Below are positions 1,332 through 54,942 of a DNA stretch of 64,000 nt, piece by piece. Where the stretch lies: the NCBI RefSeq assembly GCF_031538885.1, contig NZ_JAVKLW010000053.1, positions 25,158-89,157 on the forward strand, in the 5' to 3' direction. The position numbers were made by a program, and so were the translations under genes. Positions within the stretch are counted from its first letter, which is position 1. The number at the start of each line of letters is the position of its first letter. The notes beneath the pieces are model-generated. The model did no database searches. It saw nothing but the letters and a program-made list of their open reading frames with translations, and was not told the origin of the DNA. Origin of the DNA: Limnohabitans sp. (GTDB taxonomy: Bacteria > Pseudomonadota > Gammaproteobacteria > Burkholderiales > Burkholderiaceae_C).

Positions 1332-4045
1332 TGGAACTCAAAGACTACCAAGCCGACGTGCTCAGCGACCTGAGCACGTACCTGCAAACCCTGCTGGATT
1401 GCAAAGGCCATTTAGGCAAAGCCTTCACCACCTACTGGCAAAACCGTGGTGTGCTGAACCAAGTCTATAAGAACAACGTTCAGGAGGTGCCCCATGTTTG
1501 CGTGAAGGTGCCCACGGCAGGTGGCAAAACCTTCATTGCCGTCAACGCCTTGGAGCGAGTATTTACCGCCTTTGCCGAGTACAACCCCAGCCGCCCGAAG
1601 TTTGTGGTGTGGCTGGTGCCGTCGCTCACTATTCTTGAGCAAACGGTGAAGAACCTTGCCAACATCGACCACCCTTATCGTCAGCGGCTGAACGACTTGT
1701 TTCAAGGCCGTGTACAGGTGTACGAAAAAACCGACGTGTTGCAAGGCGCAGGGTTCAACGCCGACACGGTGCGCGAACAGTTGTCCGTGGTTGTGATGTC
1801 GTTTGATTCACTCAAAGCCAGCAACAAAGAAAACCGCAAGGCCTATCAAGAGAACGGCTACTTGGCTTCGTTTTTGAACGACAGCACCCACGATGCGGTG
1901 TTGCTGCCAGAGTTCGACAAGTCTTCTTTGATCAATGTGATCCGCACCTTGAACCCCGTGGTGGTGGTGGACGAGAGCCACAACGCTGAGAGCACTTTGT
2001 CGGTGGACATGCTGCGCAATCTGAATCCGAGTTTCATTTTTGACCTGACGGCCACGCCGCGTGAGAACAGCAACATCATTAGCTACGTAGACGCATTGCG
2101 CCTGAAAAAGCAAGACATGGTGAAGCTGCCTGTAATTGTGGCCAATCAGCACAGCCAAGAAGAGGTGATCATGGCCGCGCTGAATATGCGCCGCCAGTTA
2201 GAGGTGTTGGCCGTCCAGGCTGAGGCCAACGGTGGTGGCTACATCCGCCCGATTGTGTTGTTCCAGGCCGAACCGAAGAGCCGCGACGACAACACCACGT
2301 TTGAAAAAGTCAAACAAGTGTTGCTTGATCTGAATATTCCGCCCGAGCACATTGCCATCAAGACGGCCAACGTCAACGAGTTGAAAGGCGTGGACTTATT
2401 GGATCGCCATTGCCAGATTCGCTACATCATTACCGTCAACGCCTTGAAAGAAGGCTGGGACTGCCCGTTTGCCTACGTGCTGGCAACGCTGGCAAACAAA
2501 TCCTCCGTGGTGGACGTGACGCAGATTTTGGGGCGCGTGTTGCGTATGCCTTACACCGCCAAGCACAGCGCCGAATTATTGAATCTGAGTTATGTGTTCA
2601 CGGCATCCAACCAGTTTCAGAGCACTTTGGGCAAGGTGGTGGCGGGCTTGAACAAGGCGGGTTTTTCCAAGCGTGATTATCGCGAGGTGGATATGTCTGC
2701 CATGCCTGTGGCAATGGATACGGGCAAAACAGGTGCCCAGCAGGGCGACTTGTTGGCCCCAGCAAATCAAGAGCCAGTAGCGCCAAGCGCAGGCGAGGTG
2801 GCGGTAGACCCCTCCAAACTCAATCCGAACTGGGAAGCCGAAGCGGTACAGCACGCCGAGAACTCAGGCGACGGTGCCGCCACAGAAGCCGCCCCCGCAG
2901 ATGCCACAGGCGTGGAAAGCATCAAGGCGCAGGCTATTGCCCAAGCGCAGGCGTTTGAAGCAGAGGCCGCTCAGGCTGAGGGAGACAGTTGCCCAGATGA
3001 ATTGAAGGCGGACATGAACGAACACAAAATGAAGCCGATGTTTGAAGCATCCGCGCAGGCCATTGAGTTGCCGCAGTTTTTTCTGAAACTTCCCAAAGAA
3101 GGCGGCTTCTTTGAATCCAGCGACTTCAATGGCGATGAGTGGCACAAACTTGCCAAAGAAAATTTGTTGACCGATTTTGTTCTTGCCAATCTGGATGCCA
3201 CGGTCAACTTTTCAGCCATTGATGCGGACGTGTATTCCGTCGATGCGGAAGTTGTCGGCGAGGGCGAAAGCGCCCCAGCGTTCAAGGCGGTGAAGAAGGC
3301 CGAGAAGGAAAAACTCAATCACATCATCAAAAGCCAGCTACCGTCAGGGCAGGTGATGTCCATCGTGGCGCGGTTGTTCAGCCTAATCGGCAAGAACACC
3401 TTCTACCCCATCGAAGACAACGACATCAAGAAGTACCTCACGCGCATCGTGGAGGTGATGAGTGCCGAGCAACGTGCCGACTGCCTTGAGCGCGACTATG
3501 CCTATGTGAAGGCCATTAAAGACAAGATTCAGAGTTTGGCAAACGAGTTCGCCGCCAAAGAGTTCAACAACTGGCTGACCACGCAGAAGGTGAAATTGCA
3601 GCCGAGCTTTGTGTTGCCCGCAAGCATTACGCCCAGCGACAACGGGCCTGCCATTATCAAAAGCCTGTATCTCACCGAACGCGGTATGAATGGGCTGGAA
3701 GCGCCTGTTATTGGCAAGGTGGCTCAGCTTGAAAACGTGGAGTGGTGGCACTGCAATCTGGAACGAAGCAAGGGCTTTTGCATCAATGGCTTCGTCAACC
3801 ATTACCCCGACTTCATTGTCCTGACCGCCAGCAAAAACATCGTGGTCATTGAAACCAAAGGCGACGACCGCGACAACTCCAATTCAAAAGACAAATTGAA
3901 ACTGGGAAAAATCTGGGAAGCACAGGCCAACCAGATCGCGCACGAAACAGGCTACCGCTACCACTACATGATGGTGTTTGAGAGCAACCCGATTGACGGG
4001 GCTTTGGTGGTGGGGGATGCGTTGAAGTTGGTTGAAAATCTTTAA
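1331..4045 (+). CDS. res: Type III restriction endonuclease Res subunit (SF2 helicase plus PD-(D/E)XK nuclease)
   Basis: Walker A VKVPTAGGKT, Walker B VVVDESH, LKEGWDCP, QILGRVLR, C-terminal YPDF..IETKG. Confidence 0.92.
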   Translation: MELKDYQADVLSDLSTYLQTLLDCKGHLGKAFTTYWQNRGVLNQVYKNNVQEVPHVCVKVPTAGGKTFIAVNALERVFTAFAEYNPSRPKFVVWLVPSLTILEQTVKNLANIDHPYRQRLNDLFQGRVQVYEKTDVLQGAGFNADTVREQLSVVVMSFDSLKASNKENRKAYQENGYLASFLNDSTHDAVLLPEFDKSSLINVIRTLNPVVVVDESHNAESTLSVDMLRNLNPSFIFDLTATPRENSNIISYVDALRLKKQDMVKLPVIVANQHSQEEVIMAALNMRRQLEVLAVQAEANGGGYIRPIVLFQAEPKSRDDNTTFEKVKQVLLDLNIPPEHIAIKTANVNELKGVDLLDRHCQIRYIITVNALKEGWDCPFAYVLATLANKSSVVDVTQILGRVLRMPYTAKHSAELLNLSYVFTASNQFQSTLGKVVAGLNKAGFSKRDYREVDMSAMPVAMDTGKTGAQQGDLLAPANQEPVAPSAGEVAVDPSKLNPNWEAEAVQHAENSGDGAATEAAPADATGVESIKAQAIAQAQAFEAEAAQAEGDSCPDELKADMNEHKMKPMFEASAQAIELPQFFLKLPKEGGFFESSDFNGDEWHKLAKENLLTDFVLANLDATVNFSAIDADVYSVDAEVVGEGESAPAFKAVKKAEKEKLNHIIKSQLPSGQVMSIVARLFSLIGKNTFYPIEDNDIKKYLTRIVEVMSAEQRADCLERDYAYVKAIKDKIQSLANEFAAKEFNNWLTTQKVKLQPSFVLPASITPSDNGPAIIKSLYLTERGMNGLEAPVIGKVAQLENVEWWHCNLERSKGFCINGFVNHYPDFIVLTASKNIVVIETKGDDRDNSNSKDKLKLGKIWEAQANQIAHETGYRYHYMMVFESNPIDGALVVGDALKLVENL

Positions 4046-53082: not shown

Positions 53083-53126
53083 AATGTAGCAAAGATAAAC
53101 AATTAAGTCAATAGCAAAAGATAAAT
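53083..53126 (-). promoter_or_regulatory. pL promoter with repressor operators
   Basis: TTGACT(53111-53106)-17-TACATT(53088-53083); TTTATCTTT(T)GCTA present twice. Confidence 0.8.
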
Positions 53127-53183
53127 TATTTGCAAGAATGCGGGTAAACCTCTAGGTCTAGGCGTAAAAAACCGCCTTTCTAC

Positions 53184-53202
53184 TACGCTTAAAGCGTATA
53201 AT
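53184..53202 (+). promoter_or_regulatory. -10 box with overlapping palindromic operator of the DUF4258 operon
   Basis: TACGCTT-A-AAGCGTA overlaps TATAAT (53197-53202), 7 nt before the ATG. Confidence 0.65.
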
Positions 53203-53209
53203 TGATTTC

Positions 53210-53464
53210 ATGCAAGTCACTTACACCCAACACGCACTGACCCGTATGGCCGAGCGTGGCATTAGCAAACAAGAGGTCGAATGCGCATTGGCTCAACCCA
53301 TCCGTACCGTTGCGGCACAAAATGGGCGCACAGAATCGCAAGGCTGGATTGAGCGCTTAGGCAAACGGCAGTTGCTTCGGGTGTTGACTGAGAGCGGTGT
53401 GGTGGTGTTGGTGGTCACCGTGATGGCGACTAGCAAGTTTGAAAAATACGGAGTTCAACCATGA
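53210..53464 (+). CDS. DUF4258 protein (putative RNase toxin)
   Basis: YTQHALTRMAERGIS..EV, LRVL, VVTVM. Confidence 0.85.
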   Translation: MQVTYTQHALTRMAERGISKQEVECALAQPIRTVAAQNGRTESQGWIERLGKRQLLRVLTESGVVVLVVTVMATSKFEKYGVQP

Positions 53465-53661
53465 AAATCGAATATGACCAACAGGCCGATGCTATGTACA
53501 TCCGTCTACGCATGGGCACCGTGGCTGAGAGTGACGAGGTACGCCCAGGCGTGGTGCTTGACTTTGATGCGTTAGGCCGCGTGCTAGGCATTGAAATGCT
53601 TGACGTGAGCCAACGCACCGACAACCCGCGCGAGCTGGCCATGGAGCTGGTCGGTGCCTGA
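53461..53661 (+). CDS. DUF2283 protein (putative antitoxin)
   Basis: MKIEYD..ADAMYIRL, GVVLDFD..GRVLGIEML. Confidence 0.9.
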   Translation: MKIEYDQQADAMYIRLRMGTVAESDEVRPGVVLDFDALGRVLGIEMLDVSQRTDNPRELAMELVGA

Positions 53662-53872
53662 TGCACTACTCACCACCCGCGTGGGGGCGGCTGAACTGAG
53701 AGCATCGAGGGCCATGACAGGCATGTCGCAGGCTGAGTTTGCCAACGCTTGCCGCGTATCTGTGCGTACGCTGCAAGAGTGGGAGCAGGGGCGCAAAGTG
53801 CCAAGCGGTGCAGCACAAAGCCTGCTGAAGCTGGTCAGCCGTCACCCCGAGTTGTTGGCCGAGTTGGCGTAA
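53654..53872 (+). CDS. XRE-family HTH protein (YiaG/MqsA C-terminal-like)
   Basis: MSQAEFA..VSVRTLQEWEQGR..PSGAA..LL; GGAG RBS, 8-nt overlap with DUF2283. Confidence 0.85.
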   Translation: MPDALLTTRVGAAELRASRAMTGMSQAEFANACRVSVRTLQEWEQGRKVPSGAAQSLLKLVSRHPELLAELA

Positions 53873-53917
53873 AAACCGCACTTGGCAGGTTTGTCCTAGT
53901 CTCGCTGCATTGTTAAA

Positions 53918-54120
53918 AACGATAAAGGAGAGTGGAAATGAACATGACTGACGTGATAGCTCCGTGGGCGGCCGTCAATGCGGCCTTGGGTTTGGCTGCC
54001 CCAGTGCGTGACGAAGCCCACCACGCCGAGTTGCTGGCTTTTGTGGCCGACTGTTTCGAGCAGTTTGGGGCAGATTAAGAGCACCCTATTTTTTCTTTGG
54101 TTGGGGTGGTGGCGCGTCGG
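53918..54120 (+). pseudogene. higBA remnant: last higB codons plus truncated higA with a premature stop
   Basis: NDKGEWK* overlapping ATG 53938; MNMTDV..PVRDEAHHAELLAFV..GAD*EHPIFSLVGVVA. Confidence 0.65.
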
Positions 54121-54414
54121 TTTGGGTTGAAGGCTGACAAAAGTCCATTCGGTAGTGCCGTCAATCGGAGCTTGCATAAAGGCACAGGCTGGCTGCGGTA
54201 TGGCAAGCGCAGACATGGCGGTGTAGCCGAACCATTCGTTGAACAAGCCGCGCGGCGCAGATGTAGGAAAGTGCTTGACGTAGCCCCTACAAAGCTCACC
54301 CGTTGGCGACATCAATTGCGCTAGGTGGGTGAAGGCACGAGCGCCACCATGTTGCTGCTGGATTTTTCTAACGTAACAAGTTGAAGGCCAGATTTGCGGC
54401 GCTTTGAGAGGCAT
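54121..54414 (-). pseudogene. HipA-like kinase, N-terminal fragment only
   Basis: THLA..GELCRGYVKHF..RGLFNEWFGY..MSALAIPQP; similarity stops at the junction with the higA remnant. Confidence 0.6.
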
Positions 54415-54420
54415 CTATTT

Positions 54421-54876
54421 TTAAAAAGTGGGGGTGGATTGATCGACTTTGCCAGTCGGCGGCTTGCCCGCGAAGGCTGCTGTCTCGGTGGCTGGGTGGG
54501 CGGGCGTGTTTCCAGCGCTGCCTAGCACCTCTAGGATGTCTTGTTTGGTGGTTTGGCGCAGCCCCACGACGAAGATGGATAGTAGGCTTGCAGCTTCTTT
54601 GCGCTGCTCATGGCCCAGCTTCTCGCAGGCAGTCTCGATCACGTCTAGCGCCCCGGACACCGTAGGTGCAGCCCCCGCACTGCTGACGTTGCCAGATTCG
54701 GGGCGCATGGGGCCAAACCTTATCGCAATGTCTCGTTCAATCTTTGCCCCTATTGGTCTTTTTGCAGCGAGCCACTGATTGACCTGTGATGGAGACTTTC
54801 CAAGCATGAGCGCAAAGCGGGCTTGGCTGCCCTCTGCGTGCTTGTCTATCAGTTTTTTGAGCTGCTCAATTTTCAT
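54421..54876 (-). CDS. CI-like prophage repressor (HTH, no S24 peptidase domain)
   Basis: GSQARFALMLGKSPSQVNQWL HTH; divergent from cro. Confidence 0.85.
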   Translation of the reverse strand: MKIEQLKKLIDKHAEGSQARFALMLGKSPSQVNQWLAAKRPIGAKIERDIAIRFGPMRPESGNVSSAGAAPTVSGALDVIETACEKLGHEQRKEAASLLSIFVVGLRQTTKQDILEVLGSAGNTPAHPATETAAFAGKPPTGKVDQSTPTF

Positions 54877-54883
54877 GATCTTC

Positions 54884-54942
54884 ACTTTAGCAAAAGTTTA
54901 TTTATCTTTGATATTGACTTTTATGTTTACTAATGCTACATT
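54884..54942. promoter_or_regulatory. pR/pRM divergent promoter-operator region
   Basis: pR TTGACT(54914-54919)-17-TACATT(54937-54942); pRM extended -10 TG-C-TAAAGT on the minus strand; operator repeats shared with pL. Confidence 0.8.

What the first reader, a model, noticed from the sequence alone, without database searches (positions are those of the whole stretch)
53184..53872. Intact three-gene DUF4258-DUF2283-HTH module at the rexAB position
Seen: three overlapping genes (ATGA and 8-nt overlaps), oriented against pL, with their own TATAAT covered by a 15-bp palindrome. Established: DUF4258 with DUF2283 is a predicted TA pair; three-component TAs with a separate regulator exist (paaR-paaA-parE, omega-epsilon-zeta); the cI-pL interval is a hot spot for exclusion genes. 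Inference: DUF2283 lacks an obvious DNA-binding domain, so the separate HTH supplies autoregulation. This may be an uncharacterised tripartite TA or abortive-infection system expressed in the lysogen, and it has survived while its neighbours decayed.
Basis: partly seen in the sequence, partly recalled or inferred. Interest (0 to 1): 0.72.

Follow-up and report, generated by a model that had tools for sequence, protein, structure and literature searches.

The report
Prophage toxin-antitoxin pair with borrowed repressor
A prophage carries a three-gene cassette in which an uncharacterised toxin-antitoxin pair has replaced the toxin of a HigBA2-type operon but kept that operon's promoter, operator and DNA-binding domain as a separate small repressor gene; this is a rare but recurring variant of a known kind of system.

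Summary
Three intact, overlapping + strand genes lie at 53210-53872: DUF4258 (84 aa), DUF2283 (66 aa) and an HTH (72 aa). They sit between a pL-like promoter and the cI-like repressor of a lambdoid prophage, behind the palindrome TACGCTTAAAGCGTA, which abuts a TATAAT.

The HTH is the C-terminal DNA-binding domain of a HigA2-type antitoxin (PDB 5JAA, E=5e-13) and lacks the toxin-neutralising N-terminus. The palindrome has the same half-sites as the footprinted V. cholerae HigA2 operator (TGTACGC-N5-GCGTACA). It precedes 49 of 64 operons that encode relatives of this HTH.

DNA homology to full-length higBA2-like operons covers only the operator/-10/ATG block and the HTH domain. The DUF4258-DUF2283 pair replaces what lies between.

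The triplet recurs. One copy is in another phage's immunity region, and others carry a different DUF4258/DUF2283 subtype. Nine close relatives have an HTH_37 regulator instead, each type with its own upstream motif. It is rare overall: 1 of about 83 pairs in even genome samples.

The short HTH is under purifying selection. Toxicity, neutralisation, repression and phage defence are all untested. I rate it a new variant of a known kind, of moderate interest.

The parts
53083..53111 (-). pL-like promoter (TTGACT-17-TACATT), diverging from the module; context only
   Evidence: It has the same hexamers and similar flanking blocks as the site before cro at 54914-54942.
53161..53177 (.). Short hairpin GGCGTAAAAAACCGCC just upstream of the operator, at the position where a -35 would be
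   Evidence: Read. The same element precedes the operator in the orthologous triplet L187. Function unknown.
53184..53198 (.). HigA2-type operator: inverted repeat TACGC-N5-GCGTA
   Evidence: Identical 15-mers stand before higBA2-like operons L108 and L161. 49 of 64 HTH-homologue loci have TACG-N7-CGTA upstream, against 4 hits in 389 kb of other loci. The V. cholerae HigA2 footprint is TGTACGC-N5-GCGTACA.
53197..53202 (+). -10 hexamer TATAAT, 7 nt before the ATG (leaderless layout)
   Evidence: All related loci have a -10-like hexamer 6-8 nt before the first ATG. The transcription start was not measured.
53210..53464 (+). DUF4258 (PF14076) putative BECR/RelE-fold toxin, 84 aa
   Evidence: Pfam. 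More than 200 homologues at 65-85% identity with conserved H8, R12, E15, R16, R40, E42, R49, R57, K76, Y80. AF2 model pLDDT 85 with helix-helix-four strands; weak top Foldseek hit is the MqsR toxin.
53461..53661 (+). DUF2283 (PF10049, COG5428/YuzE family) putative antitoxin, 66 aa
   Evidence: Pfam. It follows the toxin with an ATGA overlap in all 29 related genome loci. dN/dS is about 0.05. AF2 model pLDDT 91, five strands plus a C-terminal helix.
53654..53872 (+). Stand-alone HigA2-type HTH domain (72 aa, GTG start), putative repressor of the operon
   Evidence: PDB HigA-2 at E=5e-13, aligned to residues 41-101 of 103. It is 81-83% identical to the C-terminal 59 residues of 127-aa antitoxins in L107 and L108. 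dN/dS is 0.05-0.16 among short copies.
53896..54414 (-). 172-aa ORF downstream of cI, probably a truncated phage gene; context only
   Evidence: It matches only positions 6-80 of 302 of phrog_11186. Metatranscriptome contigs cover 54123-54406.
54421..54885 (-). cI-like repressor; context only
   Evidence: phrog_35, phrog_5736.

Best explanation
This is a three-gene, translationally coupled operon carried as cargo in the immunity region of a lambdoid prophage.

Genes 1 and 2 are a self-sufficient type II toxin-antitoxin pair: a DUF4258 protein with a predicted RelE/BECR-type RNase fold, and a DUF2283 neutraliser without a DNA-binding fold.

Gene 3 and the promoter region come from a different system, a higBA2-type operon. 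Only the operator, the -10 and the start codon on one side, and the antitoxin's C-terminal dimeric HTH domain on the other, were kept. The resident toxin and the antitoxin's neutralising N-terminal region were replaced by the DUF4258-DUF2283 pair.

I propose that the stand-alone HTH dimer binds TACGC-N5-GCGTA, which overlaps the -10. This would give simple negative feedback on a leaderless transcript. Neutralisation (DUF2283) and DNA binding (HTH) are then split between two proteins.

In the lysogen the cassette most likely stabilises the prophage or aborts infection by other phages.

Shown: domain identities, gene order and coupling, recurrence, the chimeric DNA homology, co-occurrence of operator and HTH type, and purifying selection.

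Inferred: toxicity, neutralisation, repression by the truncated HTH, leaderless expression, and any role in defence.
For: - Domains.
- The pair is the conserved core. All 29 related genome loci have DUF2283 directly after the toxin. About 45 of 70 DUF2283 loci in an order-wide sample, and 38 of 67 in a phylum-wide sample, have the same ATGA-coupled pair.
- Chimera: DNA homology to L107 and L108 is limited to 53184-53212 and about 53693-53872. Those loci encode a PF06296 RelE toxin plus a 127-aa antitoxin behind the same palindrome.
- Operator: 49 of 64 loci against a background of 4 hits in 389 kb. The V. cholerae HigA2 globular domain specifies TGTACGC-N5-GCGTACA overlapping the -10.
- The upstream motif changes with the type of third gene. 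HigA2-type triplets carry the TACG-N7-CGTA motif. All nine HTH_37-type triplets share AAGTAGTTA(T/A)ATA(A/G)T. Pair-only loci have unrelated promoters.
- Recurrence: L187 is an orthologous triplet in a viral contig (68% nt identity over the module, unrelated flanks) at the same place next to cI-like and cro-like genes. L030, L031 and L036 have the same HTH and operator with a different DUF4258/DUF2283 subtype.
- Selection: dN/dS of the short HTH is 0.05-0.16.
- The DUF2283 model shows no DNA-binding fold.
Against: - In V. cholerae, HigA2 without its disordered N-terminus binds the operator 15-fold more weakly (400 nM against 25 nM) and did not repress a reporter. The natural short form here may therefore be a poor repressor.
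- Two of the four base-contacting residues differ from VcHigA2 (E71 to Q, N72 to E, read).
- The window's promoter has no recognisable -35.
- Most pairs do without any third gene: 1 of about 83 in the even samples.
- Fold matches for toxin and antitoxin are weak (E=0.06 and 0.26).
- No RNA data cover the module.
- There are no hits in the PADLOC defence library for genes 1 and 2.
- dS is saturated in many of the comparisons.
Confidence: 0.62

Rival explanations
1. The functional unit is only the DUF4258-DUF2283 pair. In this reading the HTH gene and the palindrome are leftovers of a displaced higBA2 operon with little or no present function, and the promoter runs constitutively.
For: - Pairs without a third gene are the rule.
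- VcHigA2 without its N-terminus does not repress in vivo.
- Decayed third genes exist (L004, L026).
- Decayed higBA2-like modules exist (L032-L035).
Against: - The short HTH is intact and under purifying selection: dN/dS 0.05-0.16, including a pair with unsaturated dS of 0.41.
- The operator is kept in every HigA2-type triplet, across two DUF4258/DUF2283 subtypes and 68% nt divergence.
- The start codon stays coupled to the DUF2283 stop.
Confidence: 0.2
2. The HTH is an active partner of the protein complex and not an independent repressor. Its short N-terminal tail or its dimer surface would contact DUF2283 or the toxin, so that DNA binding depends on the toxin:antitoxin ratio, as in HipBST or conditional cooperativity. 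It might also contribute to neutralisation.
For: - A weak isolated domain would gain affinity if held by a complex.
- The genes are tightly translationally coupled.
- The same architecture arose with two HTH families, both truncated at the N-terminus.
Against: - The residues before the HTH domain are short (11-20) and not conserved between triplets.
- The same HTH subtype serves two very different DUF4258/DUF2283 subtypes.
- No complex prediction or binding data could be obtained here.
Confidence: 0.12
3. The cassette is not a toxin-antitoxin system. DUF4258 and DUF2283 would then have a non-toxic role, for example in phage regulation, and the palindrome would be a hairpin or terminator and not an operator.
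For: - No member of either family has been tested.
- The consensus scan lists the palindrome as terminator-like.
- Toxin-less DUF2283-like genes next to argG exist.
- Structural matches are not significant.
Against: - Pfam places DUF4258 among the BECR-fold toxins.
- Conserved His, Arg, Lys and Tyr residues are present.
- The pair shows typical TA coupling and patchy distribution.
- It sits in TA chassis and beside other TA pairs.
- The palindrome matches a footprinted operator.
Confidence: 0.06

Closest known systems
Vibrio cholerae higBA2 (HigB2 toxin, HigA2 antitoxin; PDB 5JAA, 5J9I, 8A0W; PMC11006873, PMC5416850)
   Same: - Gene 3 is homologous to the HigA2 globular HTH domain (E=5e-13).
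- The operator has the same TACGC-N5-GCGTA half-sites and overlaps the -10.
- The toxin-first gene order and the single operator are the same.
- Full-length relatives (L107, L108) share the 15-mer and 81-83% of the domain.
   Different: - There is no HigB2/RelE (PF06296) toxin.
- There is no intrinsically disordered neutralising N-terminus on the HTH protein.
- A DUF4258-DUF2283 pair takes their place.
- Two of the four base-contact residues differ.
DUF4258 (PF14076) BECR-fold toxin family, as surveyed in PMC11980606
   Same: Gene 1 passes the Pfam cut-off. The survey also found DUF4258 linked to MqsA-type HTH antitoxins (17 DUF4258-MqsA fusions).
   Different: That survey calls the family undescribed. 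It does not mention DUF2283 as a partner, nor a three-gene form. It lists the gene order as antitoxin then toxin, whereas here the toxin comes first.
Three-component type II TA systems with a separate regulator: paaR2-paaA2-parE2 of E. coli O157 prophages, and omega-epsilon-zeta of pSM19035 (from general knowledge)
   Same: - Neutralisation and DNA binding are on separate proteins.
- The repressor acts on the operon's own promoter.
- paaR2-paaA2-parE2 is also carried by a prophage.
   Different: - There is no sequence relationship.
- The regulator is the first gene in those systems and the last here.
- Here the regulator is demonstrably a truncated antitoxin from another TA family, together with that family's operator.
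HipBST (from general knowledge)
   Same: It is a tripartite system in which the HTH protein (HipB) is not the main neutraliser and a small separate protein (HipS) is the antitoxin.
   Different: The toxin is a kinase, there is no homology, and HipB does bind the complex.
Lambda rexAB
   Same: It is cargo in the interval between cI and pL of a lambdoid prophage, a position where genes expressed in the lysogen sit.
   Different: - The module is on the opposite strand to cI and has its own promoter.
- It is not adjacent to cI.
- There is no similarity to RexA or RexB.

Membership tests
DUF4258 (PF14076) BECR/RelE-fold toxins | Sequence match to the family model above the curated cut-off | tested here: met
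   29.3 bits against a cut-off of 25, E=1.1e-6. The match covers profile positions 1-52 of 71. Relatives L030 and L187 match the full length.
DUF4258 (PF14076) BECR/RelE-fold toxins | BECR fold (N-terminal helices packed on an antiparallel sheet) | tested here: inconclusive
   The AF2 model has pLDDT 85 with helix-helix-four strands. The best Foldseek hits are MqsR (3hi2_D, E=0.058, TM 0.43) and a CdiA-CT (7m5f_C). No hit reaches E<=0.001.
DUF4258 (PF14076) BECR/RelE-fold toxins | Growth inhibition or RNase activity | not testable with these tools
   No member has been characterised according to PMC11980606.
Type II toxin-antitoxin pair | Small adjacent, co-oriented, translationally coupled partner gene that is conserved with the toxin | tested here: met
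   There is an ATGA overlap. The partner is present in 29 of 29 related loci. The same coupling is seen in about 45 of 70 and 38 of 67 sampled DUF2283 loci.
DUF2283 (PF10049, COG5428/YuzE) | Sequence match above the cut-off | tested here: met
   67.2 bits against a cut-off of 23, E=1.5e-18, full profile 1-49.
HigA2-type antitoxin (V. cholerae HigA2) | Homologous C-terminal globular HTH / dimerisation domain | tested here: met
   phmmer E=5e-13 to 5JAA, 5J9I and 9TV9. Query residues 12-72 align to chain residues 41-101.
HigA2-type antitoxin (V. cholerae HigA2) | N-terminal intrinsically disordered region of about 36 or more residues that neutralises the toxin | tested here: not met
   Only 11-13 residues precede the domain. 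A stop codon lies just upstream of the GTG in this frame. Full-length relatives have about 68 residues there.
HigA2-type antitoxin (V. cholerae HigA2) | HigB2/RelE-family toxin gene immediately upstream | tested here: not met
   The upstream genes are DUF4258 and DUF2283. Relatives L107 and L108 have a PF06296 RelE toxin.
HigA2-type antitoxin (V. cholerae HigA2) | Single inverted-repeat operator TACGC-N5-GCGTA overlapping the -10 | tested here: met
   Present at 53184-53198. The published operator is TGTACGC-N5-GCGTACA. The family-wide association is shown. Binding itself was not tested.
Three-component TA with separate regulator (paaR2-paaA2-parE2, omega-epsilon-zeta) | Toxin, an antitoxin without DNA binding, and a separate DNA-binding repressor in one operon | tested here: inconclusive
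   The architecture fits by sequence and by model. The roles have not been tested, and there is no homology to those systems.
Lambda RexAB exclusion system | Co-transcribed with cI from pRM; RexA/RexB homology | tested here: not met
   The module is on the opposite strand to cI and has its own -10. No Rex family appears in the Pfam, PHROG or PADLOC results.

The most novel reading that the evidence does not exclude
DUF4258-DUF2283 cassettes spread by taking over the regulatory chassis of resident toxin-first TA operons. They keep the host operon's operator and only the DNA-binding half of its antitoxin. This has happened independently at least twice, in a HigA2-type and an HTH_37-type chassis. 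The result is a natural 'split antitoxin', with the neutraliser and the repressor as separate genes. The window's gene 3 would then be a naturally selected HigA2 without its disordered region that still works as a repressor, unlike the engineered V. cholerae truncation.
Probability: 0.45. Interest if true: 0.55.

Novelty: new variant of a known kind. Interest (0 to 1): 0.46.

Why it matters
DUF4258 is one of the last BECR-fold toxin families with no experimental description, and this cassette offers a compact, testable example with a defined promoter, operator and regulator.

The chimera shows in one locus how TA systems are rebuilt from parts: a toxin-plus-neutraliser cassette is exchanged while the operator and the DNA-binding domain are retained. 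That helps explain the mix-and-match pattern of TA families.

It also gives a natural test of a published result, that HigA2 needs its disordered tail to repress.

Its recurrence at the same place in the immunity regions of at least two phages with no detectable DNA similarity outside the module suggests a lysogen-expressed function. That could be exclusion or prophage maintenance, and it could be tested in laboratory strains.

Tried and rejected
- Sequence searches of solved structures with the toxin profile and with DUF2283 (single sequence and profile) gave nothing significant.
- PADLOC has no model matching genes 1 or 2.
- RNA evidence: one freshwater metatranscriptome holds only 54123-54406 and nothing on the module. 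Expression and the leaderless start remain inferred.
- Exact scans of viral contigs for TACGC-N5-GCGTATAAT and for AAGTAGTTATATAAT returned mostly chance matches. Only 5 of 113 operator hits have a related HTH downstream. These scans were not used as evidence.
- A search for DUF2283-HTH fusion proteins as 'Rosetta stone' support found only tandem DUF2283 repeats among the best 120 hits.
- A paper that calls the ICE activator FseA 'DUF2283' would have implied a DNA-binding role. The later paper shows that the domain is DUF2285, so I dropped this lead.
- RHH-type third genes after DUF4258-DUF2283 (L474, L476, L477) turned out to be the antitoxins of an adjacent RelE/ParE pair, not regulators of a triplet.
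- Flank comparison: the genes next to the triplets in L030, L036 and L187 are not detectably similar to the window's flanks. The cassette moves independently of its phage background.
- The own genome has no full-length HigA2 paralogue that could cross-regulate.

Full report
**Observation.** The three + strand ORFs are as described: 53210-53464 (84 aa), 53461-53661 (66 aa) and 53654-53872 (72 aa, GTG start). The first junction is an ATGA overlap and the second an 8-nt overlap. A GGAG lies 7 nt before the second start and another 7 nt before the third.

Pfam gives DUF4258 (E=1.1e-6, above the cut-off), DUF2283 (E=1.5e-18) and, for the third protein, HTH_31, the C-terminal part of MqsA, and HTH_3. 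NCBIfam shows only sub-threshold matches to MqsA-, YbaQ- and NadS-type HTH proteins, all to their C-terminal two thirds.

The palindrome TACGCTTAAAGCGTA (53184-53198) overlaps the first two bases of TATAAT (53197-53202). The ATG follows 7 nt later, which implies a leaderless transcript. There is no convincing -35, and the consensus scan lists the palindrome only as a weak terminator-like hairpin. A palindrome of this size is not unusual in 64 kb: 22 observed against about 16 in shuffles. Its meaning has to come from comparison with other loci.

**Context.** A - strand promoter-like site at 53111..53083 has the same two hexamers (TTGACT, TACATT) and similar flanking blocks as the + strand site just before the cro-like gene at 54914..54942. 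These are the pL and pR of a lambdoid prophage. Its integrase, exonuclease, cI-like, cro-like and CII-like genes are recognised by PHROGs.

The module lies between pL and cI and diverges from pL. A 172-aa - strand ORF sits between it and cI. That ORF matches only positions 6-80 of a 302-position phage family, so it is probably truncated.

**The pair is the conserved core.** The toxin has more than 200 homologues at 65-85% identity, nearly all 84 aa long. In 29 genome loci from freshwater Burkholderiales, every toxin gene is followed directly by a DUF2283 gene at 77-92% identity, which is more conserved than the toxin at 54-82%.

In an even sample of 301 genomes of the order, 67 have DUF2283. 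About 45 of 70 loci examined have a DUF4258-like gene coupled by ATGA. In a 401-genome sample of the phylum, 38 of 67 loci do.

**The third gene is facultative and varies.** None of the 29 close loci has a homologue of the window's HTH. Nine of the 26 with enough downstream sequence have a different third gene, a 77-79-aa HTH_37 protein (Pfam E=6e-18) that starts at a GTG with the same 8-nt overlap. Two more have decayed remains of it.

In the two even samples, only the window's own genome has an XRE-type third gene, which is 1 of about 83 pairs. Three apparent RHH third genes are the antitoxins of an adjacent RelE/ParE pair.

**What the HTH is.** It aligns to residues 41-101 of the 103-residue V. 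cholerae antitoxin HigA-2 (5JAA, 5J9I; E=5e-13). That region is the globular DNA-binding and dimerisation domain. Only 11-13 residues precede it, so the disordered region that neutralises HigB2 is absent.

Its closest full-length relatives are 127-aa antitoxins, 81-83% identical over the last 59 residues. They follow a roughly 105-aa PF06296 RelE-type toxin.

**The operator.** TACG-N7-CGTA stands just upstream of the first gene in 49 of 64 loci that encode a relative of this HTH and have enough upstream sequence. The modal distance to the HTH domain is about 544 nt. In 389 kb of loci without this HTH there are 4 hits, the chance level.

L108 and L161 carry the identical 15-mer, followed by TATGAT or TATAAT and an ATG about 7 nt later. 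The V. cholerae HigA2 operator was mapped by footprinting and crystallography as TGTACGC-N5-GCGTACA. It lies after the -35 and extends over the -10, and the globular domain provides the specificity.

**A chimera.** In an alignment of the window with L107 and L108, similarity is confined to two blocks: the operator/-10/ATG block (53184-53212) and the HTH domain (about 53693-53872, 77-81% nt identity). The sequence between them is unrelated. The DUF4258-DUF2283 pair therefore occupies the place of the RelE-type toxin and of the antitoxin's N-terminal half.

**Co-variation.** The upstream motif follows the type of third gene, not the type of toxin pair.

| Locus group | Third gene | Upstream motif |
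|---|---|---|
| Window, L187, L030/L031, L036 | HigA2-type HTH | TACG-N7-CGTA motif; L030-L036 carry a quite different DUF4258/DUF2283 subtype |
| The nine HTH_37 triplets | HTH_37 | All share AAGTAGTTA(T/A)ATA(A/G)T |
| Pair-only loci | none | Unrelated promoters |

All groups keep a -10-like hexamer 6-8 nt before the ATG.

**Recurrence and selection.** L187, an IMG/VR viral contig, has the whole module at 68% nt identity, with all three ORFs open. Amino-acid identity is 51% for the toxin, 83% for DUF2283 and about 60% for the HTH. The same 8-nt GTG junction is available.

Its flanks are unrelated to the window, yet it sits in the same place: left-operon genes, the module, a - strand cargo gene, a cI-like gene and a cro-like gene. 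L030 and L031 are also followed by - strand phage-family genes and a + strand cro-like regulator.

dN/dS of the short HTH is 0.05 (window against L036), 0.13 (window against L030) and 0.16 (L036 against L030, dS 0.41). For DUF2283 it is about 0.05 and for the toxin 0.11-0.26. Many comparisons have saturated dS.

**Structure.** The toxin model (pLDDT 85) has two helices followed by a four-stranded sheet. Its best, non-significant matches are MqsR and a CdiA-CT toxin. The DUF2283 model (pLDDT 91) has five strands and a C-terminal helix. Its best match, also non-significant, is a chain of an EF-Tu/CdiA/CdiI complex, and nothing resembles a DNA-binding fold.

**Mechanism proposed.** The toxin and DUF2283 act as a normal type II pair. 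The HTH dimer represses the operon at the inherited operator. This gives negative feedback that does not depend on the toxin:antitoxin ratio unless the HTH also contacts the complex.

The main caveat is experimental. VcHigA2 lacking its disordered region binds with KD 400 nM instead of 25 nM and failed to repress a reporter. Two of the four base-contacting residues also differ here. Purifying selection and retention of the operator argue that the short form still works, but this needs a binding and reporter test.

[quoted passage not shown] Other papers only list it in TA surveys, with various partners. I found no description of DUF2283 as its partner or of the three-gene form. Earlier notes of this scan mention DUF4258/DUF2283/XRE cassettes in a Dehalococcoidia genome. 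I did not re-examine those.

**Verdict.** It is sharpened in one respect: the regulator and operator are borrowed from a higBA2-type operon. It is limited in another: the triplet is a rare, lineage-restricted variant of a common two-gene module. This is a new variant of a known kind, of moderate interest.

Noticed in passing
window 53083-53130 and 54886-54942: pL-like and pR-like promoters share the same hexamers (TTGACT, TACATT) and repeated TTATCTTTG(C/A)TATTGACT-type blocks. These are probably the cI/cro operators of this prophage.
   Followed up: partly
window 53896-54414 (-): The 172-aa ORF after cI matches only positions 6-80 of 302 of phrog_11186, so it is probably a truncated gene. Two 151-nt contigs of a freshwater metatranscriptome cover exactly 54123-54406 at 96-98% identity. 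L036 has a full-length 288-aa member of the same PHROG two genes after its triplet.
   Followed up: partly
L086-L088, L090, L091, L094-L096, L098, L101, L102: A toxin-less DUF2283-like gene (about 75 aa) lies directly upstream of argG (argininosuccinate synthase) in 11 genomes of the order. This is a conserved, non-TA context for the family.
   Followed up: no
L032-L035 (about 2215-2737 in L032): A higBA2-like pair with in-frame internal deletions in both genes. The 77-aa toxin lacks the RKVRW...GKSGG block and the 78-aa antitoxin lacks its middle. The operator TACGTCCAAAGCGTA is kept, so this looks like a disarmed module found on several contigs.
   Followed up: partly
L474 1226-2172 (reverse strand of the locus); L476, L477: DUF4258-DUF2283 is followed directly by an RHH antitoxin (4-nt overlap in L474) and a RelE/ParE toxin. 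Two TA pairs are strung into one coupled gene string.
   Followed up: partly
L007, L008, L018, L025 (for example L007 3965-4195): An orphan BrnA/CopG-type antitoxin gene follows the HTH_37 third gene, with no BrnT toxin nearby.
   Followed up: no
window 53210-53661 and relatives: The putative antitoxin is more conserved than the putative toxin (dN/dS about 0.05 against 0.11-0.26; 77-92% against 54-82% identity). This is the reverse of the usual TA pattern.
   Followed up: partly
P0241-P0248: Proteins of 114-123 aa made of two DUF2283 repeats were the top hits of the DUF2283 profile search.
   Followed up: no
window 53161-53177; L187 about 3925-3945: A GGCGTAAAAAA(A)CCGCC hairpin immediately upstream of the operator is shared by the two orthologous triplets. 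In L187 it is part of a stronger terminator-like structure.
   Followed up: no
window 53932-54078 (+): A 48-aa ORF with a good RBS lies antisense to the tail of the 172-aa ORF. It was flagged by another first-reader note as a HigA-like remnant, but it has no Pfam or NCBIfam hit at E<0.1.
   Followed up: partly
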